In this document: positions 1,607 to 36,038 of the stretch, piece by piece
Layout: each line of letters starts with the position of its first letter
Position numbering within the stretch: position 1 is the stretch's first letter
Source of the DNA: Basidiobolus ranarum
Lineage: Eukaryota
Assembly (NCBI GenBank): GCA_040143965.1
Contig: JASJQH010000060.1
Span: 1-36,038 of the forward strand
Reading direction: 5' to 3'
Length of the DNA stretch: 36,038 nucleotides
Translations under genes and position numbers: made by a program
The notes under the pieces: model-generated
What the model was told of the DNA's origin: nothing
The model's input: only the letters and a program-made list of their open reading frames with translations
The model's database searches: none

Positions 1607-2873
1607 CAAGATATCATTATCAGGTGCATGTATTTTCTATATCTTGCCAATATGGAACACTACTCGCAGTCACTGTAACTTCACAGTTGGATAACTAATA
1701 GCCGGCACAACTTCACTTGCCCTGAATATTTATTAATCAGCCATGGCTCTATATCCCAAAGTAATTCAATTGATCGAACATGTGTTTATATCGCTAATAA
1801 TCATATCAAGTGTCTGATTATCATGATATCATTAGTAAATATCTATATAGAAACAAGTGCTCTACTAAGGCTTATTTGTAGTATATTATATTAGGGTTAC
1901 CAAGTCAAGAGTAGGGAATTCGGATATGTATTGGATGTGTGAGCAATATATTGGATCAATTAGCGATCACATACAAAATGGTACAGTGAACGAATTTAAT
2001 TATTTAGCATGTAGCAAGGAGAGAGTTAGGTAGAAGTCCCAGAGTGACAGGGATCGACTGTAAGTATTGCTTATTACCAGCTTATTGCTTCAATACATGT
2101 TGTGTCCAATGTATGGCTTCAACACATGTCGTGTTCAACAGAGTCAGGGCTTATCTTTAATGACGGTAGAAGTTTTTTCCGGGAGTGGTACAAAAAATGA
2201 AAGCCACAATATCCGCTCCATGTTCCGGATATTAAGTCAAGATTCAGATATTTTTCAGATTCCCATATGTGCCAAAGTTGAGCCAATCGATAACGACCAT
2301 TGAATCTGACCTGTACCGAAAGTTCGACTATGTAGCACAATTCTTGAGAAAAAATCCACTTTGGTACTAACAATGGCAATATCAGTTGGGTGTGAGTGCA
2401 AGTGCAAGTGGCAAAGTGAACGAATCTTGGTGGAATTGATTAAACTTCTTTTCATGTGATACATGATCGGATAGTTGTAGGAACGTATGTATTGGAGCAT
2501 ATATTGGAGCACATATTGGATCTACCAACTCCCCACGATCAAATTTACCACTATTGGCTGAGAGCCAGCTTTATGTCGTCATATAGTGAATGGTGATTTG
2601 CGTAGGTTTGACGGAATTTTTAGAATGTCATTGGATAATATGCCTGAGTAAAGATAAAGAGGTTCCTTTAAAAGGCGCCTGTGGGATGGCATGTAGCGCT
2701 TAACCCCGCTATCCCCTCGATTTTCTTTTAAAGTTTAGTTGTGTTGTAGTAAAGTGAGGACTGATCTTAATACATATCTTGACCAAGAAACTGGTCCAAT
2801 AACGTTCAACTAAATATTGTACGAACCCACCTCAGTTTGCTATTCATTTTCCAACACATAACGTTATAGAGCA

Positions 2874-5247
2874 ATGACTGCACCTATCATTCAGGGACTC
2901 TTTCAGGGCAGAGAGTTGAATCTTCTGAACATAGCTAAACGCCATTTTCCATTTGGCGTTTGGATCACTCGATACAATCGAAAATGGTTGCTAGGGGATG
3001 TCATTGCAGGTATCACAATTGGTATCATGCTAGTCCCACAGGTTAGTGGAACTTGAATGTTTAATCTTGTTGAGTTGTAATAACTGAGAGTATTTGATTC
3101 TCCTAGGCACTCGCGTATGCGCAGCTAGCGACGGTACCTGTTCAATACGGACTTTATTCCTCATTCCTTGGGATTGCTATCTACTGCCTCTTTGGTACAT
3201 CTAAAGATCTTTCAGTAGGCCCGTCAGCAGTCCTATCCTTGTATATAGGTGTTGCATTAGAGCCTCTGGTATCCCAGGGCTATGATCCTGTTCAATGCGT
3301 CATAACTATGTCGTTTTTAATCGGCTGTTTTTCTCTTGGGCTGGGGATCTTCAAGCTTGGCATTGTTCTTGATCTGATTTCTATCCCAGTCATCAAAGGT
3401 TTTACTGCGGGAGCTTCGGTTACCATTTTCTTCAGTCAGGTGAGATTGCCAATTGAGCTGTACTAGCAAACTATGTAATTATTAAGCAATGGATTTAATC
3501 TGTAGGTTACCTCGTTGCTTGGAATCACTGGCGCCAAAGCACAAGGCCCCATAATAGATGTCATCAAGGCAATTGTCCAGGCACTTCCACGAACAAGGTG
3601 GCAGGATGCTCTTGTTGGATTTAGTGGTATTGCTATGATGATCTTCCTCAAATGGATATCAACCAAATTCAGTCACCTTCATCCCGCTGTTAAAATGATT
3701 GGGATTGCTCGCAGTGCTATTTGTGTGATATTCTTTACTTTGGTCGCTTTTATCATAGCAAAAGTGCAAGGTGAAGGAGTGGTTACTCTTGTAGGAACTA
3801 TTCCCACTGGATTTCCGGATCCTGCTGTGCCCCGGTTAGATCCCGCATTCCTTTCTCAGATCGTCGGTCCATCAGCCATAGGACTTATTGTGGCCATCAT
3901 TGAACATACCGCATCTGCCAGAACCTATGGTAAGATATATAATCACTAAGATGCATTTGATCTATCACTAACATGTCTTTTCTCAGGTCGTTTGAATCAT
4001 TACAAGACTGATAGCAGTCAGGAGTTCGTTGCTGTTGGCGTATGTAATATAATCAACAGTTTCTTTAGTGCTTTTCCGGTTACTGGTGCGTTATCGCGTA
4101 GTGCCGTGATTTCCCAATCTGGGGTTAGAACACCAGCCAGTGGAATTTTCACCAGTGTGGTAGTGATGCTGTGTTTGAATTTTCTACCACCGGTCATGTA
4201 CTTTGTCCCAAAACCAGTGCTGGCTTCTATCATTATGGTCAGCATCATTCCGTTGATATGTGGATACAGTGTGTACAAGGAGCTATGGGTGATTCAAAGT
4301 AACAAAGTGAATGTATTCATTCTCTCAGCTTTATCAAAAACTAACTTCCCATTCATCTAGAATCCGATATGATAGCTTGTCTCTTAGCATTCTTAGTGAC
4401 TATATTTACCAATATCCAAACAGGCATTGAGGTTGCAGTTGGTTTCTCTCTGTTAATCAGCTTACATAGAATAGCTAGACCAAAGTGGCAAATGCTTGGA
4501 GAGGCGGTTGAAGAACCCGATGTATATGTGGATAGATGGTCAAATGACTGGGCCACCTATCCACCACCTCCAGGAATCATTATCTTCCGATTCTCTGAAT
4601 CCATTACTTTCTTGAATGGAGAGTATTTCAAGAATAAAGTGATGAATGCCGCATATATCGCTACCGAGCCAGCAGAGAAATCAGCGGGTTCTTGGGGAGA
4701 GCGCGTCTGGTCTGATGATAGAGATTCTCGTATTGGCCGCATCCGGAATACATTCAACCGACGCCTACCCCCAAATGCAATGACACGACCAGGTGAAATG
4801 AAAATCAAAAGAGTTAATACCGCTGATAGTACCTATGACCGCGAGCATTCCCAGAGTCACATTCCAATCGAGATAAATGGAGAGAAGACAGCCGAACTTC
4901 CGACTTTACGAGCAGCGATTCTAGATTTTAGTGGAGTGAATCAAGTAGATTTCGCAGGTTTACAATGCTTGCTAGACTTGAAGTCACAGCTTACCGATTA
5001 TGCCGGGAATCATGGGTTCGAACTTCACTTCGTAGGGTTAAAATCCAACGTGTTGAGACGTATTGAACCTTCGGGTATTACTAAACACCCAGATGATGGA
5101 CCAGAGGATAATCACCGTTACATTCATATTAGTATCAAGGATGCGTTGAAATGTATTATGGAAGATTGGCATCATCAGACATATCTACCCCCACCTGACC
5201 CAGTCGAGAAGCTCGAAGATATGAGGATTCACATGCATCAGGCCTAA
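2874..5247 (+). CDS. SulP/SLC26-family sulfate/anion permease with C-terminal STAS domain (about 5 exons)
   Basis: GDVIAGITIGIMLVPQ|ALAYAQLATVPVQYGLYSSF, QEFVAVGVCN, FPVTGALSRSAVISQSGVRTP; STAS motifs IIIFRFSESITFLNGEYF and AILDFSGVNQVDFAGLQCL. GT-AG introns at approximately 3042-3106, 3440-3505, 3929-3986 and 4307-4360. Confidence 0.93.
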
Positions 5248-5719
5248 ATTATAAGATGTTAATTATTATATCCCTCTAATATGTATTAGAATCCTAATTT
5301 GAATTACACTATGGCTAACTTGTGTTGAATCCCGCATTTCTTCCATTCATATCTTTCTTTTTATACACACGTGGGTTTACAAGTTAAACGAAATAAGGTT
5401 CATTGTTTTCTAGTAAAGTATCTCATTATAAGCCTCCCTTTTAACCTTAAAGGATATAGACATATGGTGTGAAAATTGCGCCACATAGGCCAGAATTTCC
5501 ATTTAATCTCTCAATGCTGGGCCTTGTTGTAACCCTAAGCATATGTCAATGAATGTTACTCTTAACTCCCATCATATTTACCAGTACCATAGAAACAGGA
5601 TTACTGCATATACATATATATATAGCCTGTTCACGTATTTACCGAGAAACATTCAAACCTTTGTCACCTCATCGTAGGACAAAGTTCACTTCAATATTCA
5701 TTTGTTGATTTGGAATTAT

Positions 5720-6620
5720 AATAATAAAAAAATGGGATCAGCTACACTATTGATATCTTATTGGTAATTCAACGCGCAAATTTCTTACTTGGATGAGCTT
5801 GAGCAATTGAAGTAGAGACGGGAGAGCGAACAGCAAGTACAAGGAGAACCTTATAATGACGGCATGCAAGTTGCTTCCATCATTCTTGAAGCTGCTCAAT
5901 CCCTATTCTAACGACTTTCACTCAATTATGCTGATTCTAGTTAGATATTTGCTAGAGGACTCTATTGAGGGTTGGGTTTTTCCGGTTATGACAGTGACCT
6001 AAGATCCCTTTTATGAGAGTTTAGAGTGGCCAAAAAGAGATCATAAAAACCCACTCGGAGTGGGGGAACTGGGTTAGCAGTTACCCGTCATCACCACACC
6101 TACCCCCAAAATATCTTCAGTTCATCAGTAGAACCCTCAGCCTCCTTACTTCTTAGGTTCCGATTATACACTCGCAAATCTCACCAGGCTCACAACTAAG
6201 GCCTATCTTCCCGGTGAAGATGGCAGGAGCAGAAGTGAAACGACAATAAGTGAAATCAGATCCGTAAAAAATGAGAAAAACCAAGAGATCCTTCCAACTT
6301 ACTTCCAACACCTTGGAAAAGAGTCATAAACTCTAAGTAAGAGCAGTTCGACACACACTTAGGGTTAAGTATCAAATACAACGCCAAAGGTTATCAAGCC
6401 TAAACTTGGTTCCCCTTTGTTTTTTGCGAGGTACCTTCCACTTAAAATGATCAGACCGTCGTTATCCCGTGAAACCGTCAATTTCTTGACAATGAAAAAC
6501 TTCGCCCTCAATAGAATACTTTGTTAACTTACGCAAAAAGAATATCATGGCTCCACAGCCTAGTCTGTAGCGTCCCACAAAAAAAGGACCGCACCCGCCG
6601 CGCGTCACGAGTTATAGCAG
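5720..6620 (-). ncRNA. TER: Candidate telomerase RNA (~0.9 kb); ends approximate
   Basis: Minus strand, in order: terminal helix 5' strand (6578-6526); core-enclosing helix (6517-6494 with 5982-5959; 6480-6474 with 5995-5989); template UAACCCUAA (6367-6359); pseudoknot GAGUGG-GUUUUUAU-GAUCUCUUUU-UGG-CCACUC-UAAACUCUCAU-AAAAGGGAUC (6056-6003); three-way junction (5897-5828); terminal helix 3' strand (5782-5732); U-rich tract (5732-5725). Most helices contain G-U pairs that work only on the minus strand. The ORF track shows no ORF here. Confidence 0.82.
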
Positions 6621-6647
6621 CCAAAGAACCACTTTAATCCATGTAGC

Positions 6648-6655
6648 TATTTATA
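6648..6655 (-). promoter_or_regulatory. TATA box (TATAAATA) upstream of the candidate telomerase RNA
   Basis: Plus strand TATTTATA at 6648-6655, about 70 nt upstream of the first strand of the terminal helix. Confidence 0.55.
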
Positions 6656-6924
6656 CCTCTGCTCATTTGTTTTGATTTGAATATAATGACGAATTAAATT
6701 TGATTGGATTGATAAGACTTAGATCAGTGTATATGCACTAAGAAAAATAAATGTATCATTCAATAGATTTTTATATATACCCTGGGGGCATATCTTTCTG
6801 ACGTTGATGGTATAAACATGACAGAGAGGAAACAAATCACTACCTTCACTCTACTGAAAGCGAACATTCATCCTCTTTCTGCTATAACCAGCACAATACT
6901 TGACTTCTCAGAGGGAATTTACCT

Positions 6925-8514
6925 ATGGAGCAGTCGGTAATTGATACAGTAAAGATCTTGATGTAATGGGTATATTAACACTCCCAAGTCTCTATTTTCC
7001 AATGGCTCGGAAGACAAGGATTTTGATAGTGATTGTACGGCAATATCCGACCCTCGAACGAATCAAATCAATTTAGGTGAAGAAAAAAGGCCGAGTGCTC
7101 AGACGAAAAAAAGGATTCTGGTATGTAGCAAACAATTTGGATGAAAATTACATGTAAATAATCAAATACTTTCAAACAAGTCCAACAATAATGCGATTAA
7201 ATCCATACATAAACGATACCTTTCGTTACCTCTATTGAGAAGTGCACTCAAAGACTCCGAGTTGAACACTATTAGAGAACACGGGTCGGAGGATCTGGAA
7301 GTTTCGGATAATCCAAACTCGGTTGAAACTCTTGAACAAGAGCTATCCACCGAAAACACTCATCAAAATGAAGAGATTCCAACAGGAAATATGGGTCTAT
7401 TAAAAAACAGAGTCCGTGAATTTGACGCGCTTTGCTCTGATATGTTGTTTACTGCTTCCACATATCATCAGAAATATGATCAATATAAATTGGATTTTAA
7501 TCAACAACAGCAAGATTTTTTCAACGATTTAACTACAAAATTCAAAGAAATGCCACTTGAGTTGGGTAACTCTTTATCGGAAGAGATAGGTAAAAATACT
7601 CGGATACTATGACTCTTGAATCCCAACTTATGCCATGATATAGTAAACATGATCAATACAAAGATTCAAGCTATTCAAACCAATGTCAAACACCAGCTAG
7701 ATCTAGAGTGTACTCGTACAAAAGAACAAATCACGGTTCATTTATTATACTTGCAATCCAACATCAACAGTTACTAAGCTCTTTATTCTAGCAAATTACA
7801 GATCAACTAAATCAACTAACACAATATTTCGAGAAGTTTAATGAAAAGTACTTGGACATGCTGGTAATATTGAAAGGTTGTAACCTACTTTGACTTTCCT
7901 TTCATATTCACTTCATATGATGTAGTCCAACCAGTCTGCTATCCAAGAAACTTTAAATCGACTTCGTCATACAGCACAATATCCAATATTTAGTAACAAG
8001 TGAGTGAAACAGCCTCAGATATGTGAACTTATTTCAAAACTAGATCAAATTACATACAGCAATTATCCATTGTTGAATCAGTTGCCCTCTATTGCCTTAA
8101 CTGATTTACAACATCAAGGTGTGTTAAGACAAAAGTTCAATCACCACTACATATCAGATGTTCATTTAGTATAGTTTTTATTGAAGAGATGACTTCAGTC
8201 TCTACCAAATCCTCAACAATCCATAACTTGGCTGAAGATAAATGTCCCAGTGATAGAGAGAATAGTAAGTAAATGAAGAGATTTCATAGATGCCAGGCTG
8301 TACATCATAATGAAAGGCTTTTCTTTAGTCACACGAGAGATATCTGTCTCCTCGGAGTCAACAGTAAGAAATAGGAATGATAGTTTGAACAAGATCAAAT
8401 CCGAAACTTCAAAGAAACGGACTAAAGTAAGCGTTTGTTTCATTAAGAATAAATGATTCATAGTCTCTTGGTTAATTTCTACACTTTTAGAAGCGTCGAT
8501 TATTGATCACTTAG
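6925..8514 (+). CDS. Multi-exon hypothetical protein with central coiled-coil region and basic C-terminus
   Basis: Exon chain with GT-AG introns: MEQS|SLFSNGSEDKDFDSD...KKRIL|SNNNAIKS...EFDALCSDML...SLSEEI|VNMINTKIQAIQTNVKHQLDLE...|QITDQLNQLTQYFEKF...|...SETSKKRTK|KRRLLIT*. Exon structure between 8000 and 8300 is uncertain. Confidence 0.6.
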
Positions 8515-20808: not shown

Positions 20809-23800
20809 ATGTCTCAATACCTTCACAACGCCGAGAACGGCGGGTACCTTCCCGAAGATGTAACACACTTGGACCTGAAGAATCTTACAGAGGACTCTTT
20901 TACTCATTGCATACAAGGCCGTTTTGAGCAAGCTCAACTATATACCAAAATCAACAATTCGGCCTTAATAGCTGTCAACTCATTTGGACCTGAGAAGGAA
21001 AACACTGCTATTTCTCAACAGTATATTGAAGCCTGCTATCGTGATACCAGCGGAAACCCCCATAATTTACCATCACATATATACGAATTGGCGGCGAAAG
21101 TGTACCTTCATCTTCGTCGTACAGGAGTCGATCAGTCAATAATTTTAAGGTATGCTTCATGTTTGTTATCTATGTGTCACAAGGAGATGCTGATCTGATT
21201 TCATATTCCGCATTGTTTATTTAGTGGTGTCACCGGGAGTGGTAAAAGTGAATCATACAAAAAATTATTGAGCCAATTCTGTAATCTGGCTGCTTACGGA
21301 AAAAAAGAAACCAAATTACCCGGACAAATCCAAAATATTCAAGTAGTGTTGGAGGCATTTGGTAACGCGATGACTACCCAAAATCAAAATGCATCCCGCT
21401 ACTGTATGTACCAAGAAATTCAGTACAACGCACGTGGTAGAATCTCTGGAGCCAAGACTCTGACGTTTTCATTGGAAAAGTATCGGGTTACTCACACACC
21501 ACTGCACGAAAGAAATTTCAATTCATTCTACTATCTCCTTGCTGGTTTATCGGCGGATGAGAAGAGTGCTTTGGAGTTGTCAGAGCCAGAAGATTATCAT
21601 TATCTATCCCAAACACAACGCTTCAAAATAGACGGTGTCGATGACGGTGACAAGTTCCGCGAGCTCAGAGCAGCGATGAAGTCATTAGGCATCAAAACCT
21701 CTGTACAAACGAATGTCTTCAGGTTATTGACGGGTATCTTACACTTGGGTAACATCATATTTGAGGATCACTCGGAGCAAGAATGCTCCAACGTGAAGAA
21801 CACCGAGTTGTTGCAATTGGTTGCTGAAATATTTGGTGTCGGTTACACTCCCTTGATGGAGTCGCTGATTTTCAAATCTAAATTGGTAGGGAAGGACGTT
21901 TGCACCGTCTACTTGGACGCCAAAACCGCCGGAAAGCAACGAGACGCTTTGGCAAGAGCGTTGTATTCTCTCTTATTTACCTGGATAGTGGAGGCCATCA
22001 ATACCAAAGTCTGTAATGAATCGCCTACCAATTTCATCGGATTACTAGACCCCATAGGATTCCAAAATATGGAGCACAATAGATACGAGGAGTTCTGCAT
22101 CAACTTCACTAACGAGAAAATTCACAACTTCATTCTGAAGCATATGTTTGATCCTAGCATCGGAATGAATTCTGAACTTGCTGCTGATGGAGTGACTATC
22201 CCCAACATTCTGTACTCCGACAACCAGTCATGTGTTGACATGATCATTGGTAAGGCTAGCTTGATCGAAGTGATTGAGGAGAATGGTATTTCAGAAAGCG
22301 AAGAAGATTCCAAAAACATCAGTTTAATAATTGATCAACGTTTTGGCAAACATTCGTCGTTTCATTCTACCCAGACCCATAATCAATTCGGAATCAAGCA
22401 CTATGCTGGTACTGTCGATTATGACACCGATAACTTTGTCGAAAAGAACAAGGACATTCTTGCTGCGGATTTTGTTTCTCTATTCCGTGGTAGCACACCA
22501 AGCACTAATGCTTTCGTCACTGAGCTATTCAGCAGTGATGCTGTAGAAACCGAGTCTCATCCACGAAGCAAAGATACTATCATTGCTGCTCAACAGCTAA
22601 CCAAGCCTACCAGACAATCAAGCCGACGTCACCCAAAGAAGCCTGATGTCAAAAAGGAGAGCTCCAAGAGTAGCATTCCTGGAGTATTGACCCAATTGGA
22701 CTCTACGTTGAATGACTTATTTGACACAATGAATGAAACTCTTATCTGGAACGTATTCAATATTAGATCGAATCTATCTCAATCGCCTTATGAGTTCGAT
22801 GCCCACTGTGTCCGGAATCAAATCGTTGGATTATCCTTAACCGAGATTGCATGTCGTCTAGTGAATGATTATACCGCTAGTTTGGAATTTTCCGAATTCT
22901 TGGAGCGTTATCAACCAATCATAGAAGCGTTGCGATTGGACAGCAGTAAAGATTCACGTCAACTCGTAATGGCTGTGAAGAATATCAGTGGCTGGAATGA
23001 CAAGGATATGTATGTTGGTGCCCAAGAACGTGTTTTCCTATGCGAGCACGTTTGGAAAGAGTTGGAAGATAGTTTAAGGGCGATGGAGAAGGATGAAAGA
23101 AATGCTCAAAAAGGTAGAGCTTCATCTCTCGGTCATGATGGTGAATCCTTGGTATCCGGGTATAATGGTCATGACAATACATCCATGCCACCCAGAAGTA
23201 TGCCTTATGATACAGGCAGCTACAACAGTGAGGAGGATTACCGCAGCCAAAATATGCCAAGCGGTTACGGTCAATACGCCAGAGAAGATAGCGAATATGG
23301 AAGCGAGTTTGATTTTAGAAATCAACCTGGGAACGAAATAGAGTTGACCAAAGCCAGTAAAGGCGACTCTAAGGGAGCGCCGGTTGTTGAAACTCTTCCA
23401 CTCTCAGCAGTTCGTAGAAGTTGGCTATGTGTTACAAAATTATTTACTTGGTGGATTCCTTCGTTTACTCTTTCTTGGTGCGGCATGAAAAGGCCAGATG
23501 TTCAATTGGCATGGAGAGAGAAAGTCACCCTATGTATTTTCATCCTAATCCTTTGGGGAGTTATTATATTCATCATTGTAGGCCTTGGGCTAATTTTGTG
23601 TCCCCGTGTGCACTACTACAACGCTACAGATGTCGCTTTTCACCAAGGAAAGGGGGATTTGTTTGTCTACATGTATGGCAAAGTTTACGATGTTTCAATT
23701 TTCGCAGATTCAGATCACGGCCGAACCTCCGTTTCAACAGGTGTACCATATAGTGAAATGTCATCAATGATCGTGGAGGTCAATAATGACATTACGCCAT

Positions 23801-26493
23801 ACTTTGAAATTCCACTTCATGTGCAATGCCCTGGCTTGGTGGCTGAAGGATCAACACTTCAAATGAAGTCTGATATTGTATTACCAATTACAGTACCACA
23901 TCAAACTGGGATATTTCAAACAAATCCAAACAGTCCCATGAAAAATGACAATTGGTTCTATACCAACGCTCTGCCGTTCCTTCGTCTCTCCACCAAAGGT
24001 GATGTTGCTTGGGAGGTAGATCATATTCGATACATGTCCCAACAAGGGTATAAAAAGTGGGGTATTATCAATGGGCGAGTGTATGATCTTACTTCTTACT
24101 TTAATACTATTGATGACCCTATGAATGTTAACGTTCAACAGTTTCTCGATCCGCAAATTAAACAACTATTTCATCTGAGTAGCACGTTTGGGCCTGACTT
24201 GACTAAAGAATGGAATGAGAAAGTACACTTAGACTCTCAGACGCGTGCCATGAATATGGAGTGCTTAGATAATCTGTTTTATATAGGTGTGGTAGATACA
24301 CGCCACGGCATCAAGTGCAAATTGGCTCATTGGATTCCGGTTGCATTTGCTATCGTACTATGCTCGGTTATTGGATTGAAATTCTTAGCAGCTCTTCAGT
24401 TAACTTCGAAGCGGAAGCCAGAAGATCTAGATAAATTTGTCATTTGCCAAGTGCCCTGTTACACAGAAGATGAAGATTCTCTACGTAAGACGATCGACTC
24501 TTTAGCTGGACTCCAGTACGATGATAAGAGGAAATTGATCTTTTTTATTGCTGATGGTATGATTATTGGAAGTGGTAATGACCGGCCTACCCCCAAAATT
24601 GTATGTGATATCTTGGGTGTGGACCCAGACTATGACCCTGAACCATTCAGCTTTAAGAGTATTGGAGAAGGCAATCAGCAACACAACATGGCTAAGGTGT
24701 ACTCTGGTTTATACGAATTTGAGGGACATGTGGTCCCATATATCGTGGTGGCGAAAATAGGAAAACCCAGTGAGCGTTCACGTCCAGGTAATCGTGGTAA
24801 ACGTGATTCCCAAATCATTTTGATGAACTTCTTGAACCGTGTCCATTTCGATAGTGAAATGTGTCCCTTGGACTTGGAGATATATCACCAGATTAAGAAT
24901 GTCATTGGTGTAAACCCCGCCTTCTACGAGTACATTTTAATGGTGGATGCTGATACTGAGGTTAAACCCGACTCGCTCACCCGCTTGATTGCATGTATGA
25001 CACATGATGCTAGAATTATCGGACTTTGTGGAGAAACACAGCTTGCCAATGAAGAGTTCTCATGGGCTACTATGATTCAGGTGTATGAGTACTATATTTC
25101 TCATCACCTTGCTAAAGCCTTCGAGAGTCTTTTCGGCAGTGTTACTTGCTTACCAGGATGTTTCTGTATGTATAGAATTCGTACTGTCAAGGGCTCGCCA
25201 TTGATCATTAATAATGAAGTGATTAACAACTACTCTGAGAACAATGTGGACACACTGCACAAGAAGAATCTGCTTTCACTTGGTGAAGATCGTTACTTGA
25301 CCACATTGATGTTGAAGCACTTCCCGCAATACAAGATGAAGTTTACCTCTGATGCTATTTGCTATACAGTGGCTCCCGATAAGTGGTCAGTTCTGCTTTC
25401 ACAGCGTCGTCGTTGGATCAACTCTACTGTTCACAACCTATTCGAGTTGCTATTCCTTTCTGATCTTTGCGGTTTCTGTTGTTTCTCTATGCGTTTTGTC
25501 GTATTCCTCGATCTTTTCGGAACAATCATCATGCCTGCCACAGTTGCATATCTAGTTTATTTGATTATTGCCGCGATTATTGATCCCAACAGTTTAAGTA
25601 CCGTTGCCTTAATCATGTTCGCTGTGGTTTATGGTCTTCAAGCTGTTATTTTCATTTTGAAACGCGAATGGCAACATGTTGGCTGGATGATTATTTACAT
25701 CTTGGCCATGCCAATCTTCTCATTCGCCATTCCTATCTATGCTTTCTGGCATTTCGATGATTTCTCCTGGGGTAATACTCGTATGATTCTTGGTGACAAA
25801 GGTGAGAAGAAGGTCGTATCCAATGAGGCTCCATTTGATCCAAAGTCTATTCCCATGAAGAAGTGGAGTCAATTTGAACAGGAAGCATGGGAAGCTGGTT
25901 CTACTACCTCTAAAGATCATTCATCTAGATCCAGATCTAGAAGCAGATTTGAAGGCTCCCAATATGATGGATCGCAGTATCGTTCTCAGTCACCTTACGC
26001 AGGCTCCCAATATGGAGGATCACAAGTCTCTGCCAATTACTATGATAAACAGTCCAGTTACTACCAAGGTCATGATCAACGCCCTGCGTCTCATCTTTCT
26101 CCCTCTGTTATGCCCAGCCCTGGTTTTAATGGGTCGAACCATGATGGTTACATCGACTCTCGCACTTCTCTAGCATATTCTCAATACGGCCATGATATGT
26201 CTCCAGATAGACATTCTGTTGCTCCCCAATCTCCTTACGACTATCCTGTCCACCAGATGCCGATGGCTATGCCCTCACCAAGACCTGAAAGTGCTATGTC
26301 CGGAGGTGGATACTATCCTACTGATGAAGAAATCCTTGGCGAGATTCGACATATATTGTCGACTGCTGACCTGATGACTGTCACAAAGAAGCAAGTGCGA
26401 GAACAACTTGCATTGGTCTTTGGGGCTGACATGAGCCCTCGCAGGGATTTCATCAACAACTCTATTGAATTAGTTCTTCAAGGTCAAATCTAA
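20809..26493 (+). CDS. Chitin synthase with N-terminal myosin motor-like domain (class V-type), cytochrome b5-like region and C-terminal DEK_C domain
   Basis: One intron at 21150-21224 restores the P-loop SGVTGSGKS. Motifs LEAFGNAMT, NRGKRDSQ, LMVDADT, CLPGCF, LGEDRYLT, QRRRW, FSWGNTR; C-terminal PTDEEILGEIRHILSTADLMTVTKKQVR. Confidence 0.96.
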
Positions 26494-27182
26494 GCAAAGA
26501 TGAATATTTAGATAGCATCATGGTTGGGCCAGAATATTCAATCCTCTCATTCACTAATTACATATATTTTAACGAGATTTCAGTTACATCTTTCGTCACG
26601 CTTTAGCACACTATCCCACAATGTATTTTCCCCTATTTTTTGCCATCTTTTCTTAATATATCGTCCTCATCCTCATCTTCATTCTCATCGACCTCTAAAT
26701 CATTTTAACCCATGATTTTACTTGTAAAACCTTTATTCATGACATGTAGTATTTATTATTACACAAAACTGTGGATAACTTGAATAAAAACATTTGAGCT
26801 GATTCTTTTTCTTACTCTTTGCCTTGCTCTGTTTCGTACGCATAAGTGGAGATGCAGAGTGTGGAATGGGATCAATGCAGAGTGTGGAATGAGAACAATG
26901 TGTAGAGTAATGATGACATCAGTTCCCATTATCTTTGTGTACAGCTCGGAGATTTTTTACCAGTTTAACAGGAATAACATCAAACTAAGCTTTAGGGTGG
27001 GAAGCATCAATTTTACTAAATTCCCATCAGAATTTGCCTTTCCATAAACAATAAGGAGAATTCTAATTTCGACATTGGGTCAGTCAGATCTTTCTTTCTG
27101 CTTCTTTCCTTCCTCATGGCTCATCCTGTGGTAGTGCTGAAATAATCGCTGATTCAGTCATTCTAAATAAGTATATTTAGTT

Positions 27183-27286
27183 TCTTCGATGCCACCGTCA
27201 GCTCGTACCAATATTCTTGGATGCTACCATCAGCCCGTATTCATGCTCTTAGATGTCACCGTCATATTCTTTGATGCCACAGTCAG
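27183..27286. repeat. Four degenerate ~19-bp direct repeats (TCTTNGATGYYACMRTCA)
   Basis: Copies start at 27183, 27215, 27247 and 27268. Confidence 0.75.
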
Positions 27287-30250
27287 TATTCCTGGACCAT
27301 TCATTCCATCATTCGGTTTTACTAACCCAAAGTGTATTACTGACGGTAAATAGAGATGCTCGATCAACCTGCCCCACACCAGCTTAAAGGGTCCATGATG
27401 AAGTAAGACACGCATTCTTCTTGAGGATAAACTCTTTGTAGAATCCAACCAAAACCTCAGTGCATTAAATCCAGGATTAAATATAAACATATATGGCAGA
27501 ATTCTCCATACTTGTGAGAAAACCATGATAGAATAATGTGGATGTAAATATACTTGGATGTACATATCACTCATCTTCATCTTCACCTGCACCTGCACCC
27601 AACCCCACTCAACAATCGATTACGAATATGAATACGTAGGATATCTGTTCCTCTAATGATCAATTGGCTGAGGGGTGAGAAGATGGTGAGGAAAGGGCCA
27701 CCTTGTCTGTCACACAAACTTCAGTACCCGGTTTTTAGTCTAGATGGACTCGCTTTTCTTATAGTACCCTTAGGCAGCTAACTTCGAGTCATTTTAATGT
27801 ATAAAAATCAATTAGATGTGGTTAGTATGTGCGCATAGTGTCTAGGATGGCCTCCGAAACCAGAAATGACCACGTTTGAGTAAACAAAGAGAGTGATGTA
27901 ACATCCAATATATTGTTGGTGTGAATGGCTGAGGACATAAATGGTCTTGAAAAATAGGGGATGGGATCCTGAGGAAATTTGGGGGCAGCTTCAAGGCAAG
28001 TGGTCTGATTCCTAGGTAACAGCGTATGGCCAGATTTCGTAGTAAAATTCACACATCTCATCTCACCAAGCTTATTGATCAACATTGTGTAGCAAGCAAG
28101 ACCATTCATTGTAACTCCTCCAGGTTGAATCAACACCATCTAAATGAGGGCCGAGGCACAACCCAGCTGACTTCTCATGGCTTTGATGGAAGCCGATACT
28201 CATAGATCTGTCTGCTCCACATTGGCCAAGATTCAAATAGGAGTAAATTCTTACAAATAGTTAGTAATTCGCCAACCTTTGGTTCTAGACACATTCCGTG
28301 GAAAGCAACTAGTCGTCATATTATCAAGCGAAAGCGAGCTGAATGGACGATCTGCATTAAAGATGAGACAATATTTACTTAATTTCCCGAAGATCAGAGA
28401 TTATTCGATTAGAAGGGTTTGGTAGAAGAGTAAGCCTGCACTTTGACTAATGTAATATAGGCAGCCCTATACGACGTCGCAGTATGAATTCTAATGGGCA
28501 CAGATGATACATCAACAATTGGCGTCATCCCGAGAAATCCTCGGTGCCCCCTAGACAATGAGTTGATATGCAAACAATCAGCAGTCACGATATGGTAATA
28601 GTAGTAATCAGCAAGTCGTGATATGGTAATAGTAGTGGCAGTAGTAGTGACAGTGACATTAATGACCTTGGACCCACTGAGTGTCAGTGGCGTGACAATA
28701 ATGGCTATTGACTTGGTGGGTTCTATTCTTAGATTCCAGGGAAAACTCTCTTTGATCAAGATGAGATCCGAAATAGTTAAATTGGGTCAGAATGAATTAT
28801 CCCCAATCTGAGGCGTAACCTTTGTATTGGTTGAGGTGGATGACGAGAACAGAGTAGTATATATATGATGGTAGGCACTATATCAGCTGATAGTATATAT
28901 ATATAGGTATGTGTATAATGAAAAGACCGTACAAATCAGTGCCGATATCGCCACGTTCTACAATATCAATAAAAAATGACAGTGGAAACGAAACCACGCT
29001 GAAACATTGTCTCGTATAGCCTGTCATCCAAGTCCCAGTCCACCATAATTCGTCTATAATGGTCGGTGTGGCAGCTGAGTTAGGAATAGTTATCTGGGCA
29101 CAAGTTTAAGGTGCACTTTACATGCAAGAAGCATTCCAAACAAAGATTCAACATTGGATTGGATGTCGGCTACTTATCTCCGGTTCCTGAACGAATTCAA
29201 TGGATTAACATGGCTAATTAGACTCAGAGGACGATTGATCCTTATTTTGGTTAGTTGGTGAGGTCGGGGCTATAGGGATATTAATGTGCTCAGTATAACG
29301 TAACTACTTTCCTGGAAGATAATATCCTCGATTGGAGTAGTCTACATCAGTGGGTGGTGAGCAAATCATTTCTCTGGAGAGAGTCAACATTAATGCAGGC
29401 GAGGTGTTACCAGAATATTGGTCGAGTGCTTCGTCTGTATAGAAAAACTGCATTGAAGAGTAAAAGGGGTATTTGCCTTATCCATGGGTGGCTATGAACC
29501 TATACTCTAAGTGACGGCTTATAGGATTGAGTGATTCAGTGCATGCAGGCTATGATGAAGTGGCCAAGCTTTTGTGCCTACCAAATGGTAGAGTTGGCTT
29601 ATTCTGTCTACACTTAGGGTTAGGGTGGTTTTAGACTGGAATCCGCGCACTTGCTTTGATTTATACAATAACAAACTGGAATACCCACCTTGATTTATTC
29701 AATAGCAAATGAAGAATGTGGGAGAGGGAATATGAAACCCAGCCACAATTTCAGGTTATGTTGATTGGTGATGTCAAAAGAGGCCTTCCCCAACTTTTCC
29801 AGTCGACATGGTTACATTCAATAATTCTTACCTTCCAACTACTCTAGACTCTAAATTCAGAAACAATTCACGAAAAAAAAGCAGATTCGAAAGAACATAT
29901 TTCCGGTTTGCATGGCTTAGCTGTCCTGTAATAATGATTACAAGTGCCAACTAACAACAGAGATAAAGCGGCCTCACGTGCCTCGTCTTTTGAGAAAATC
30001 CAACTGGCAACTAGGATTCGAATGAAGAATGCAAGCTGAACATCGCCGCTTGTTTATATTGATCGATGCAGATAGTGTTCTGGTTTATTTCCTGGTTTGA
30101 AGGGTCGAGATAAGTATTCCTTACTCAATTTTGAACAGCATTAATATGGAAATAGATATTCATTAAGCAACTCTCATGTCACATGACTTCGGCTATTTCC
30201 ATTTGGACTATCCTTCTAGGGGTAGTAGACAATGGGCAATCGATTTGGGA

Positions 30251-30452
30251 AATAAGAAATGGGAATAAGAAATGGCAATAAGAAATGGGAGATGGCTTAA
30301 TATCAACATGACGAAGGTGTAAGGGTTAGGATTGAGTAGTGATGGGAGCGATATGAAAGGTGATGATTAGTGACGATGATTAGTAGCTACAATGCTGGCT
30401 AGATTAATGCTGGCTAGATTAATGATGGCTATCGACGCTGGCTAGATTAATG
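30251..30452. repeat. Two short minisatellites: AATAAGAAATGG x3 (30251-30288) and AATGCTGGCTAGATT x~4 (30391-30452)
   Basis: Read directly from the sequence. Confidence 0.8.
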
Positions 30453-31257
30453 GCGGTGTAGAATGGCTCTGGTGATCAGTATAAATCATTGCTCACTATT
30501 CGCACTCACACCCAACCAAATTGATCAACATTCATGGAAAAGGGGCTAAGTTCCGAATGAAATCATACTTCTGCGTAGACGCATATTAGATTGTTATCCA
30601 TGTGTGGCTTACAAGTGAAAGATGAACAGATCTATTTCTCCTCCACGACGTCCAGCGAACTGAGCAAATAGTCCGATGCTCATTAAGGATAAATAAGGCT
30701 AAATTGGGTTGGAGCTCTAATACAGGATATTGATTATTGATGGGATTCATCACTGCTTGAGTGGCGATTGGTTCAGGCGATTGGTTCAGCAGTGCCGTGG
30801 AATCAGTGGCCAAGCTACTAAATAGAATCCTGTATACCAACTATGACCGAGTGGCTAAATTGAATACCAACTGTATTGTAGAATGACTAGAGAATGGTGA
30901 AACCATGTTGGTCGCTTATGTTTTTGTTATTGTTAGCATAGGGTGGGGCCAGGAAATACATATATAAGAGGGAAGCAGAAGCTATCCTCATTCAATTAAT
31001 CCACTCGACCGGATTTTAAAAAGATCAACTGTACGCTGCACAGTTCACGCTTGACTATTCACGCTCCTTTCGCAAGTTTTTTTTTAAGTCTTCCCCACAC
31101 ATATCGCTTATTTCCATACTTTTACAGAAAGTAGCGAACCTCGTTTCTATTGACCTATTCTTCATATATTATCACATCGTTTTCCTTCTCGGCTTCTTAT
31201 ATATTCTCTGTCTCTCCTTTTGGACTCAAAACTTCCTCTCTCGAAATATCTCATAGA

Positions 31258-33889: not shown

Positions 33890-36038
33890 CTACTTCGGGT
33901 TATTTTCATTCGCATTGCTAATTGTCTGCGTAACCTCATCTTTATCATTCACATCTGGGATCTTTTGACTTGTTTCTGAGCTGTTCGTATCCTGTCCTAC
34001 TTCATTAGCTCCCTTCGTATTTTGTAACGTCTCCAAGTCATGATTAGTACCATCAGCTACAGGAGAATAAGAGATTAGTTGATTGGATATTATTCTCCTC
34101 TAGAAATAGCCTCAATTACCAGTTTGAGATGAAGGCGAACCTTCGTGTGTCTGTGCATGATTTCCCTCGTCCTTACTTGAATTCTGTTTGACAGCTTTGG
34201 GTGATGTTATTGTACCAATGGAATCGTCAATCTGTCCATTAAGAATATTTTCACGTTCTCGACGAAGTTCATGAAGTCTACTAAGTGATTTGAATAGTTC
34301 CTGACGCTGATACTTTTGCTTCTCATTTACTAAAGCCGACTCAGGATTGTTTTCGTTAATGTTCGGCAAATCGATCTTTGACGTTTGAGGACTTTCTTTG
34401 GTAATGGTAGGGGATGAGGTTGATGAATTGGTTGATTGCCCACAATTTTTCGGATTTTCTGATAAGGGTGAAGATACTGGTTCATCATCAAGTATGATTA
34501 CTGGCTGGGTATTATCCACAGGAGTTTGATCAATTATGCCTTGTTGAGATTGTTGTTGTGGTGCTTGTTGTTGGAGCGGTTGTTGTGGCAATTGATTCTG
34601 CTGCGACTGTTGCTGTAATTGTGATGATTGTCGCTGTGGTGATTGTATCTGTGGGGATGGCTGTTGTGGCAATTGCTTCTGTGGCGGTTGTGGATGTGGT
34701 TGTTGTGATTGCTGTGACGATTGTTTCTGTTGTGACTGTTGTTGTAGTGATTGTTGCAGATGCCATTGGAGTTGTTGTTGTGAAGGATGTTGTTGTGGCT
34801 GTTGCTGTAGTGAATGTTGCAACGATTGTTGGAGTTGCTGTTGGAGTGAGTTATTCAACAATGGTAACGGGGGGCGTTGCTGCTGAAGATATTGCTGTTG
34901 CAATTGATGTACCTGCTGTGGGCTCATCTGATTTAAGAGATATTGTTGCAATTGTCTCAATTGAGTTTGTTGAGTCTGATTCAAGTGTGGAGCATTCTCC
35001 TGAATTTGCTTCTGTAAATATTGATGGAGTATTTTTGCTTGTTCTTGACGATGTGCACCTGAAGTTTGGTTGTTCTGTATTTGGTTTAATAGATTTTGCA
35101 TTTGTTTCAAATGATTTCGCTGCCTTTCAGCAGCTTGTAACTGCTTTTGTTGCGGCTGATTGGAATGATATTGTTGCATTTGCTGTAGCAGAGCATGCTG
35201 TACTTGGTCAGGGAGTGGTTTTTCAGCCTGTGCTTGTTGAAGTTGGGAGACTTGGAGCTGATATTGTTGCATTTGTTTTAATTGCTTTTCTTCGGCTTGC
35301 GCAGATCCAGATGGATTGGGGTTCATTTGTTTTATAAGGTGTTGTAGTTGATTTAGTTGAGCTCTTTGAGCCGACTCTTGCCTTGACTGATACTGCATCT
35401 GATTGAGCTGTGCCATTTGGGCTTGGGGTGAGTTTTGTTGATTTAGATTTGGTAAGGACTGATTATAATTCACCGGTCTAAAGTTGTGCTGCGTTTCCTT
35501 CGACTTATCTAGCCGCTGTTTGTTTGCTTGGGGTTGGTTGACAAAAGTTACAGGACGCTGAGGAAATTGCGACGCACTTGATTGAAAGTTGTGAGATGTG
35601 GAGGTATTGAATGCTAGGTTCGGGAGAGAGGCGGCATGAACCTGTTGAGGAGACCGATAGGTAGCAGCGGATGCCGATGAGCTAGGCAAAGAAGCAACGT
35701 AGGTTTGCTGTGGAGATTGATAAGCATTAGTAAGCTTCGATGAACCAGGCAAAGTACCAATGTGAGTCTGTTGTGGGGATCGATAGGCAACAGTAGGCAT
35801 TGTTGAACCAGGTAAAGAGACAAACTGGGTCTGTTGTGGAGATCGATAGGTAGTAGATGTCGTTGACCCGGGTAGAGAAGGGACATGACTCTGCTGTGGA
35901 GATCCAAAAGCAGTTACTTGTGAAGTTGAGCCGGGCAGTGAGCCAAACTGAGCCTGTTGTGGAGATCGATAGGTAGTAGATGTCGTTGACCCGGGCAGAG
36001 AAGGGACATGACTCTGCTGTGGAGATCCAAAAGCAGTT
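33890..36038 (-). CDS. 3' part of a glutamine-rich low-complexity protein with 20-aa tandem repeats (5' end outside the window; final exon uncertain)
   Basis: Open frame from the window end to ~34119, then a GT-AG intron and an exon ADGTNHDLETLQ...NENNPK*. Extensive Q-rich tract. Confidence 0.75.
35620..36038 (-). repeat. Coding 60-bp tandem repeat (~7 units in the window) with a 120-bp higher-order period
   Basis: Units align line by line (60 nt). 35834-35918 is nearly identical to 35954-36038. Peptide consensus [YF]xSPQQxxxxSLPGSxxxxx. Confidence 0.92.

What the first reader, a model, noticed from the sequence alone, without database searches (positions are those of the whole stretch)
5530..5549. 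20-nt 'anti-template' downstream of the candidate TER that could sequester the template in a precursor
Seen: minus-strand 5'-UUGACAUAUGCUUAGGGUUA-3' (5549-5530) can form 20 contiguous pairs with the template region 5'-UAACCCUAAGUGUGUGUCGA-3' (6367-6348). All four departures from perfect complementarity are G-U wobbles on the minus strand and would be A-C mismatches on the plus strand. Complementarity runs 11 nt beyond the telomeric 9-mer, so this is more than a stray telo-box. It lies ~180 nt past the predicted mature 3' end. Inference: a 3'-extended precursor could mask its own template until 3' processing, an autoinhibitory or folding-chaperone switch I do not know to be described for telomerase RNAs.
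Basis: partly seen in the sequence, partly recalled or inferred. Interest (0 to 1): 0.78.

Follow-up and report, generated by a model that had tools for sequence, protein, structure and literature searches.

The report
Template-complementary element downstream of candidate telomerase RNA
Just downstream of a probable telomerase RNA gene in the fungus Basidiobolus ranarum lies a 20-base stretch that could pair perfectly with the RNA's own template, which may silence unprocessed transcripts or may only be a scar of past telomerase action.

Summary
Minus-strand 5549-5530 forms 20 contiguous pairs (16 Watson-Crick, 4 G-U, -27.7 kcal/mol) with minus-strand 6367-6348, with no pairing beyond either end. 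On the plus strand the four G-U become A-C (-18.0 kcal/mol).

It is not chance. It is the longest such run on the window's minus strand (10 shuffles reach 16-18). It is also the best non-self partner of the template among 18008 scanned windows.

The window is a whole Basidiobolus ranarum contig. The upstream RNA (about 6620-5725, minus) is exceptionally structured: z -7.2, against -1.5 to +2.8 for 14 control folds. It shows telomerase-RNA hallmarks by prediction and has no Rfam match.

Whether the pairing ever forms is untested. Nested folding gives the duplex probability 0.00, because it crosses the core-enclosing helix. As a pseudoknot it nets about -14 kcal/mol before a tethering penalty.

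My reading is an RNA-level template mask acting on 3'-extended or read-through transcripts (0.35). Rivals are a telomerase-made DNA footprint (0.2), a template-switch relic (0.1), a telo-box with a lucky flank (0.1), and the RNA not being a telomerase RNA (0.15).

Template sequestration is already described within mature Tetrahymena telomerase RNA.

The parts
5530..5549 (-). 20-nt 'anti-template': TTGACATATGC followed by the telomeric TTAGGGTTA
   Evidence: 20 contiguous pairs with 6367-6348. It is the best non-self partner of the template in the window.
6348..6367 (-). Candidate template UAACCCUAA (6367-6359) plus an 11-nt 3' linker GUGUGUGUCGA (6358-6348)
   Evidence: P(unpaired) is 0.59-0.83 for 6364-6353 in both mature-like and precursor folds.
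5725..6620 (-). Structured non-coding RNA body (candidate telomerase RNA); ends approximate
   Evidence: MFE -283.2 kcal/mol, z -7.2. The plus strand gives -229.5, z -4.2. Seven control regions on both strands give z -1.5 to +2.8. No reading frame over 65 aa in 5250-7140.
6647..6657 (-). TATA-like box GGTATAAATAG upstream of the RNA
   Evidence: Read; its function is inferred.
6494..6517 (-). 5' strand of the core-enclosing helix (13 bp plus 7 bp)
   Evidence: inverted repeat I1; mean pair probability 0.99 and 0.94.
5959..5982 (-). 3' strand of the core-enclosing helix
6365..6445 (-). Template-adjacent arm. Its closing helix 6445-6439/6371-6365 abuts and overlaps the 5' end of the template, like a template boundary element
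   Evidence: mean P 0.76.
6003..6056 (-). Candidate H-type pseudoknot: S1 6056-6051/6029-6024, U-rich loop 6050-6043 (GUUUUUAU), S2 6042-6033/6012-6003 with four U-A pairs at the junction
   Evidence: Sequence read. S2 has P 0.93. S1 is a perfect 6-bp complement that a nested fold cannot show (P 0.04). The triple helix is inferred.
5827..5898 (-). Three-way junction resembling CR4/5: P5-like 5898-5891/5834-5827, P6-like 5884-5877/5862-5855, P6.1-like hairpin 5854-5839
   Evidence: P 0.60, 0.92, 0.99.
5725..5733 (-). AUUUUUUUA tract after the terminal helix (6571-6567/5745-5741): an Sm-like site and the likely 3' end region
   Evidence: Sm binding is inferred and the consensus G is missing.
5550..5724 (-). 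Trailer between the structured body and the element
   Evidence: No structural signal: 5480-5730 gives z +0.26 (minus) and -0.80 (plus).
29610..29625 (-). Second internal telomeric motif, CCCTAACCCTAAGTGT. It shares 13 nt with the template region and its plus-strand complement is the next-best partner of the template (-21.9)
   Evidence: (E 0.62 alone). No structured RNA downstream (z +0.90).

Best explanation
The 20-nt element is a template antisense encoded in cis that acts at the RNA level. Transcripts of the candidate telomerase RNA gene that extend about 180-200 nt past the structured body carry it. These could be normal 3'-extended precursors or read-through products. The element then pairs with the single-stranded template and its 3' linker inside the already folded core. 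This is a long-range pseudoknot, so such molecules cannot present their template until the trailer is cut off and removed by an exonuclease or helicase. What is shown is the complementarity, its strand specificity, its improbability, the structured RNA upstream and the openness of the template. What is inferred is that transcripts reach 5530, that the duplex forms, and that it inhibits or protects.
For: - 20 of 20 pairs at -27.7 kcal/mol on the minus strand, against -18.0 with four A-C on the plus strand.
- Longest run on the minus strand; 0 of 10 shuffles reach 19. Best non-self partner of the template in 18008 windows.
- If the element were a freely decaying perfect copy, four substitutions would leave all 20 pairs intact with P 0.0008-0.045, depending on transition bias. 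Pairing therefore looks constrained.
- It spans exactly the predicted open stretch: the template plus the linker up to the next helix at 6352-6349.
- It lies on the same strand and downstream of an RNA with z -7.2 (controls) that has a core-enclosing helix, a template-adjacent helix, a candidate pseudoknot and a three-way junction.
- With both sites opened (13.55 kcal/mol) the duplex still nets about -14 kcal/mol.
- Fungal telomerase RNAs have longer polyadenylated precursors (PMC4299874, passages).
- Template sequestration in free telomerase RNA exists in Tetrahymena (PMC5224487, passages).
- UUAGGG RNA pairs with and inhibits the human template in vitro (PMC2943627 and PMC3799450, abstracts).
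Against:
- No orthologue: no genome is held, 0 relatives were found by protein scan, and the single pattern hit is an unrelated contig.
- In nested ensembles the duplex has P 0.00 in 5 of 5 precursor constructs, and enforcing it costs +6.5 kcal/mol.
- The core-enclosing helix is transcribed before the element, so full 20-bp pairing needs threading of the free 3' end.
- The trailer has no structural signal and contains AT-rich UAUAUA-type sequence, which could end transcripts before 5549 (read; inference).
- The telomeric half of the element is partly held in a local hairpin 5540-5516; opening it costs 5.6 kcal/mol.
- A 20-bp duplex would not fall apart on cleavage alone.
- The telomerase RNA call rests on prediction only: no Rfam hit, and the species' telomere repeat is unverified.
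Confidence: 0.35

Rival explanations
1. The element is a DNA footprint of telomerase. Either a chromosome break whose 3' end happened to pair with the linker next to the template was extended by one template pass (TTAGGGTTA) and resealed, or a short cDNA of the template region was captured. On this reading it is a short interstitial telomeric sequence with no present function.
For: - The homology stops exactly at the 5' template boundary (...GGGTTA then non-pairing bases).
- Telomeric 9-mers are enriched in the window: 4 exact against a mean of 0.32, and 0 of 500 shuffles reach 4.
- A second one, at 29610-29625, carries two repeats plus 4 nt matching the same linker.
- If the flank was chosen by pairing with the RNA, wobble-compatible mismatches are expected.
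- Vertebrate genomes hold telomeric inserts flanked by retrotranscribed telomerase RNA, some from the region next to the template (PMC8537989, passages; PMC2246262, listing only).
Against: - It would have to fall within about 1 kb downstream of the telomerase RNA gene and in the complementary orientation by coincidence. I estimate about 0.03-0.05 from 3 other motifs in 36 kb (inference).
- 11 nt of flank pairing is far more than the few nucleotides of microhomology described.
- If it was copied, neutral decay keeping all pairs has P 0.0008-0.045.
- The 13-nt match at 29610 is not significant on its own (E 0.62).
Confidence: 0.2
2. The element is a neutral relic of a short local inverted duplication (a replication template switch) that happened to copy the template region. 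It has since been blurred by four transitions.
For: - The borders are sharp and there is no wider similarity (the local alignment is limited to 18-20 nt; flank scores lie within the shuffle range).
- Three of the four differences from a perfect copy are C to T, at one CpG and two CpA sites.
- Proximity is natural for a local event.
- Inverted pairs with 16 of 20 identity are common in the window (26).
Against: - All four changes preserve pairing on the RNA strand (P 0.0008-0.045).
- None of the four falls in the 9 telomeric positions (P 0.068).
- That the one pair with full G-U-inclusive pairing involves the template is itself unlikely, of the order of 1 in 100 to 1 in 1000 (my estimate).
Confidence: 0.1
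3. The telomeric 9-mer is a DNA site for a Myb-type TTAGGG-binding factor (Tbf1/Teb1-like; names recalled). It would serve, for example, as a terminator or insulator between the two convergent genes, and the 11-nt extension would be fortuitous.
For: - Fourfold occurrence of the exact 9-mer in 36 kb against a mean of 0.32 suggests a used motif.
- The element sits between the end of the sulfate-transporter-like gene (stop at 5245-5247) and the RNA gene.
Against: - The extension pairs by chance with P about 1.2e-4.
- The site at 1891-1899 has no such extension.
- No binding data exist.
Confidence: 0.1
4. The structured RNA is not the telomerase RNA. It would be another long non-coding RNA that happens to carry a telo-box, so the pairing has nothing to do with a template.
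For: - No Rfam family matches (0 at gathering; only a chance miRNA hit at E 4.7).
- At about 870-900 nt it is short for filamentous-fungal telomerase RNAs (recalled).
- The telomere repeat of the species is not verified (no telomeric array in the contig).
- The P6.1-like loop has 4 nt, not 5 (against PMC4993307).
- No telomerase RNA is published for this fungal group in the searched library, so there is no yardstick.
Against: - The combination of features is hard to get otherwise: an open 1.5-repeat template, a template-adjacent helix, an enclosing helix, a U-rich pseudoknot candidate and a three-way junction, with z -7.2.
- The other telo-box that was tested shows no structured RNA.
Confidence: 0.15

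Closest known systems
Tetrahymena telomerase RNA alternative stem ('Stem 3alt', template-stem) in protein-free RNA (PMC5224487, passages read)
   Same: Intramolecular pairing covers the template and the sequence 3' of it. It is said to sequester the template, is conserved to base-pair, and is proposed to stabilise free RNA and guide assembly until TERT opens it.
   Different: There the partner is the pseudoknot region inside the mature 159-nt RNA and is released by protein binding. Here the partner lies about 180 nt outside the structured body, so release would need 3' processing. Conservation is untested here.
TERRA as a template ligand and inhibitor of human telomerase (PMC2943627 and PMC3799450, abstracts)
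   Same: UUAGGG-containing RNA base-pairs with the telomerase RNA template and blocks it.
   Different: TERRA acts in trans, comes from chromosome ends and has many repeats. Here there are 1.5 repeats plus 11 nt of unique flank, encoded in cis beside the gene.
3'-extended, polyadenylated precursors of fungal telomerase RNAs processed by spliceosomal cleavage (PMC4299874, passages read)
   Same: A pyrimidine-rich Sm-like site at the mature end, with transcribed sequence beyond it that is later removed.
   Different: No convincing 5' splice site follows the U tract here (AUAAUU at 5719-5714 against AUA(A/C)GU; read). No template-complementary element is reported in those trailers in the passages I read.
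Interstitial telomeric repeats flanked by retrotranscribed telomerase RNA, TERC-ITS (PMC8537989, passages read)
   Same: A telomeric repeat joined to sequence matching the telomerase RNA next to the template, at an internal chromosomal site.
   Different: Those are scattered across vertebrate genomes and were shown to be insertions by comparison with empty sites. Here a single copy lies beside the gene itself, only 1.5 repeats long, and the insertion status is untestable.

Membership tests
Fungal/vertebrate-type telomerase RNA | Single-stranded template complementary to the species' telomere repeat | tested here: inconclusive
   UAACCCUAA is at 6367-6359, and positions 6364-6353 are 0.59-0.83 unpaired. 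The telomere repeat of B. ranarum could not be checked: no genome is held and the contig has no telomeric array.
Fungal/vertebrate-type telomerase RNA | Template-adjacent helix as template boundary element (PMC4993307) | tested here: met
   Helix 6445-6439/6371-6365 abuts and overlaps the template's 5' end, mean P 0.76. This is prediction only.
Fungal/vertebrate-type telomerase RNA | Pseudoknot with a triple helix at the helical junction (PMC4993307) | tested here: inconclusive
   S1 (6 bp) and S2 (10 bp) are in H-type order, with a U5 loop and four junction U-A pairs. The nested folder cannot score it, and there is no covariation data.
Fungal/vertebrate-type telomerase RNA | Core-enclosing long-range helix | tested here: met
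   6517-6494/5982-5959, P 0.94-0.99.
Fungal/vertebrate-type telomerase RNA | CR4/5 three-way junction with P6.1 (4-bp stem, 5-nt loop) (PMC4993307) | tested here: inconclusive
   A three-way junction is present at 5898-5827. The P6.1-like hairpin has a 4-6 bp stem and a 4-nt loop.
Fungal/vertebrate-type telomerase RNA | Sequence or structure homology to curated families | tested here: not met
   No Rfam match at gathering threshold, and none relevant at E up to 10.
Fungal/vertebrate-type telomerase RNA | Association with TERT and templating of telomeres | not testable with these tools
   Needs immunoprecipitation and template mutagenesis.
Template-sequestering alternative fold (Tetrahymena Stem 3alt type) | Pairing covers the template and its 3' flank | tested here: met
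   20 of 20 pairs over the template plus the 11-nt linker.
Template-sequestering alternative fold (Tetrahymena Stem 3alt type) | The partner lies within the mature RNA | tested here: not met
   The partner lies 177 nt beyond the U7 tract that follows the terminal helix. The trailer is unstructured.
Template-sequestering alternative fold (Tetrahymena Stem 3alt type) | Pairing conserved across related species | not testable with these tools
   No related locus was obtained.
Interstitial telomeric sequence made by telomerase (ITS / TERC-ITS) | Telomeric repeats joined to sequence matching telomerase RNA | tested here: met
   A 9-nt telomeric stretch plus 11 nt complementary to the linker, with 4 transitions from a perfect copy.
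Interstitial telomeric sequence made by telomerase (ITS / TERC-ITS) | Shown to be an insertion against an empty orthologous site | not testable with these tools
   No orthologous sequence is available.
TERRA-type template ligand | Transcribed from chromosome ends with tandem UUAGGG repeats | tested here: not met
   A single 1.5-repeat at an internal locus.

The most novel reading that the evidence does not exclude
A telomerase RNA gene carries its own built-in template blocker in the 3' trailer. Any transcript that is not correctly 3'-processed has its template locked in a 20-bp long-range pseudoknot. This would be a self-masking or quality-control device not described for any telomerase RNA precursor, found in the first telomerase RNA candidate from the zygomycete-grade fungi.
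Probability: 0.3. Interest if true: 0.8.

Novelty: new variant of a known kind. Interest (0 to 1): 0.55.

Why it matters
[quoted passage not shown] That would be a simple way to keep immature or read-through RNA from assembling into an active or dominant-negative enzyme. It would also extend the Tetrahymena idea of template sequestration to a precursor-specific form.

The question is directly testable with a few constructs.

Independently, the upstream RNA is a well-supported candidate for the first telomerase RNA from Zoopagomycota. None was found in the searched literature for this group. The only suggestion I found for a basal fungus is a doubtful ciliate-like candidate in Lichtheimia (PMC4133162, passage).

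If the element instead proves to be a telomerase footprint, it would show telomerase-mediated break repair in an early-diverging fungus.

Tried and rejected
- **Orthologue hunt.** A metagenome scan with the neighbouring 300-aa exon matched 48 pattern stretches, and 0 were relatives. A scan with a degenerate 20-mer matching both arms gave 1 hit, L001. This is an AT-rich coding-looking contig without the second arm, which I judged a chance match.
- **Rfam.** Nothing relevant.
- **Larger decayed inverted duplication.** Rejected: similarity is limited to 18-20 nt, and the transition-tolerant score of 40 lies inside the shuffle range, which reaches 50.
- **Rival telomerase RNA at the two-repeat motif (29614-29625).** Rejected: the downstream 896 nt have z +0.90.
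- **Plus-strand RNA with the 5530 motif as template.** Rejected: the plus strand folds 54 kcal/mol worse.
- **Pol III transcript ending at the T7 tract.** Rejected: the body contains several internal T5-T7 runs (read).
- **Local 200-nt z-scores.** Uninformative (-1.9 to +2.2), because the signal comes from long-range helices.
- **Spliceosomal 3'-end signals.** Only weak candidates by eye (AUAAUU at 5719-5714; GGUAAAU at about 5643 and 5583; UUAG|GG inside the element). I did not pursue them.
- **Literature for a described precursor anti-template.** Phrase searches found only the Tetrahymena case. These searches are literal and cover open-access papers only.

Full report
**Where we are.**
The window is an entire 36038-nt contig of the zygomycete-grade fungus Basidiobolus ranarum. 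A myosin-motor chitin synthase reading frame in it is 100% identical to an NCBI protein labelled with that species, whose longest contig is 36038 nt. The next relative, B. meristosporus, is only 65% identical in that protein. No whole genome, earlier notes or sequencing runs were open for this window.

**The observation.**
- Minus-strand 6367-6348 reads TAACCCTAAGTGTGTGTCGA and minus-strand 5549-5530 reads TTGACATATGCTTAGGGTTA.
- Antiparallel, they pair at 20 of 20 positions: 16 Watson-Crick and 4 G-U, at -27.7 kcal/mol. The first three positions beyond either end do not pair.
- On the plus strand the four wobble positions are A-C mismatches, and the best duplex is -18.0 kcal/mol.
- The element begins 177 nt after the U7 tract (5732-5726) that ends the structured RNA.

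**Is it chance?**
- The 11 nt beyond the telomeric 9-mer would pair by composition with P about 1.1-1.2e-4. Empirically 6 of 36028 minus-strand and 5 of 36028 plus-strand 11-mers can do so, counting the element and the template's own complement.
- Among all intrastrand pairs within 1500 nt on the minus strand, this is the longest contiguous run (20). The next are 19, 18 and 18, and ten dinucleotide shuffles topped out at 16-18.
- In an energy scan of 18008 windows on both strands it is the best non-self partner of the template (-28.5 against a background of -6.3, sd 2.8).
- Against over-reading: as plain DNA identity (at least 16 of 20), such inverted pairs are ordinary. There are 26 in the window and 15-25 in ten shuffles. 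What is unusual is that every mismatch is wobble-compatible on one strand, and that the partner is the template.

**The upstream RNA.**
- Between the stop of a STAS-domain, sulfate-transporter-like gene (5245-5247, plus strand) and a reading frame starting near 7145, no frame exceeds 65 aa.
- The minus strand of 5725-6620 folds to -283.2 kcal/mol with z -7.2. The plus strand gives -229.5 with z -4.2.
- Seven other 896-nt regions on both strands gave z -1.5 to +2.8, from 8 shuffles each. Four further regions in that script were not reached before its time limit.
- Predicted features and their ensemble probabilities:
  - a 13+7-bp helix 6517-6494/5982-5959 enclosing the template (0.99 and 0.94);
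  - a helix 6445-6439/6371-6365 abutting the template (0.76);
  - an open template and linker (0.59-0.83 unpaired for 6364-6353);
  - a candidate H-type pseudoknot at 6056-6003 with a U5 loop and four junction U-A pairs (S2 0.93; S1 is a perfect 6-bp complement that a nested folder cannot show);
  - a three-way junction at 5898-5827 with a short P6.1-like hairpin (0.99);
  - a terminal helix followed by AUUUUUUUA.
- A TATA-like box lies at 6657-6647.
- These match the defining elements listed in the review PMC4993307 (passages read). They are predictions without covariation.
- Rfam finds nothing. The P6.1-like loop has 4 rather than 5 nt, and the species' telomere repeat is unverified.
- I put the telomerase RNA identity at roughly 0.8.
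- No telomerase RNA for this fungal group turned up in the searched library. The one suggestion for a basal fungus is a doubtful ciliate-like candidate in Lichtheimia (PMC4133162, passage).

**Would the duplex form?**
- In nested thermodynamic ensembles of five precursor constructs (5' ends 6660-6560, 3' ends 5500-5300), every one of the 20 pairs has probability 0.00. The template stays as open as in the mature-like RNA.
- Enforcing the duplex costs +6.5 kcal/mol in the ensemble and +9.1 in MFE, because it crosses the core-enclosing helix.
- Treated instead as a pseudoknot onto the folded core, opening both sites costs 13.55 kcal/mol. That leaves about -14 kcal/mol before a tethering penalty, which I estimate at 4-7 kcal/mol (inference).
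- The pairing is therefore energetically feasible but topologically demanding. The enclosing helix is transcribed first, so two helical turns require the free 3' end to thread.
- The trailer itself shows no structural signal: z +0.26 on the minus strand and -0.80 on the plus strand.

**How did it arise?**
- A wider decayed inverted duplication is excluded.
- Relative to a perfect complement the element differs by C to T three times (one CpG, two CpA) and A to G once.
- If a perfect copy decayed freely, four substitutions would keep all 20 pairs with P 0.0008-0.045, depending on transition bias. They would spare the nine telomeric positions with P 0.068. This argues that pairing with the telomerase RNA sequence mattered, either as RNA-RNA pairing or as RNA-DNA pairing when telomerase extended a broken end.
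- The second possibility has support. Exact TAACCCTAA occurs 4 times in the window against a mean of 0.32, and 0 of 500 shuffles reach 4.
- The copy at 29610-29625 has two repeats plus 4 nt matching the same linker. That 13-nt match alone has E 0.62, and the copy at 1891-1899 has no flank match.
- Vertebrate genomes contain telomeric inserts flanked by retrotranscribed telomerase RNA (PMC8537989, passages).
- The weakness of that reading is the coincidence of position and orientation right behind the gene, together with an 11-nt flank.

**Weighing.**
- Chance is excluded.
- A cis RNA function explains the position, strand, extent and wobble pattern at once. It rests on an undescribed mechanism and on no expression or conservation data; I give it 0.35.
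- The rivals are a telomerase footprint (0.2), a template-switch relic (0.1), a telo-box with a fortuitous flank (0.1), and the RNA not being a telomerase RNA (0.15). The remainder is unassigned.

**Comparison with known systems.**
- The nearest precedent is the conserved alternative stem of protein-free Tetrahymena telomerase RNA. It pairs pseudoknot residues with the template and its 3' element and 'sequesters the template' (PMC5224487, passages). The partner there is internal, not a trailer.
- TERRA pairs with and inhibits the human template in trans (PMC2943627 and PMC3799450, abstracts).
- Fungal telomerase RNAs are made from longer polyadenylated precursors carrying an intron after an Sm-like site (PMC4299874, passages). 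I see no convincing equivalent splice signals here.
- Literal phrase searches for a described precursor anti-template found nothing else. They cover open-access text only.
- If real, this is a new variant of template sequestration rather than a new category.

Noticed in passing
window 5725-6620 (minus): An exceptionally structured non-coding RNA (z -7.2) with template, enclosing helix, pseudoknot candidate and CR4/5-like junction. It is a candidate for the first telomerase RNA from Zoopagomycota. No Rfam match.
   Followed up: partly
window 1891-1899, 5530-5538, 6359-6367, 29614-29622: The exact 9-mer TAACCCTAA occurs 4 times in 36 kb against a mean of 0.32 in 500 shuffles. Three of the four are followed by G. 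This may be a used telo-box or telomerase footprints.
   Followed up: partly
window 29610-29625 (minus): CCCTAACCCTAAGTGT: two telomeric repeats plus 4 nt identical to the linker after the template. A TATA-like TGTATAAATC lies about 40 nt upstream. No structured RNA downstream (z +0.90).
   Followed up: partly
window 6589-6572 with 5680-5663 (minus): In the precursor fold the 5' leader pairs with trailer sequence (9+4+3 bp) instead of the terminal helix seen in the mature-like fold. The true 3' end may therefore lie nearer 5660.
   Followed up: no
window 5643-5535 (minus): By eye: two GGUAAAU 5'-splice-like sites (about 5643 and 5583), a GAGUAAC branch-like site (about 5559) and UUAG|GG inside the element as a possible 3' splice site. 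UAUAUA-rich sequence at 5625-5607 resembles a yeast-type polyadenylation efficiency element.
   Followed up: no
window 21199-26493 (plus): A long exon of a myosin-motor chitin synthase (Myosin_head, Cyt-b5, Chitin_synth_2, DEK_C domains), 100% identical to a B. ranarum database protein.
   Followed up: partly
window 35675-36038: Tandem repeats of 60-63 and 123 nt run to the contig end, inside a long minus-strand open frame (34112-36037) with no Pfam match.
   Followed up: no
window 26500-31100: About 4.6 kb without any reading frame over 130 aa, holding several short tandem repeats. The content is undetermined.
   Followed up: no
L001 1472-1491: The only metagenome match to the degenerate 20-mer lies in an AT-rich, coding-looking contig unrelated to the locus. 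I take it as a chance match.
   Followed up: yes
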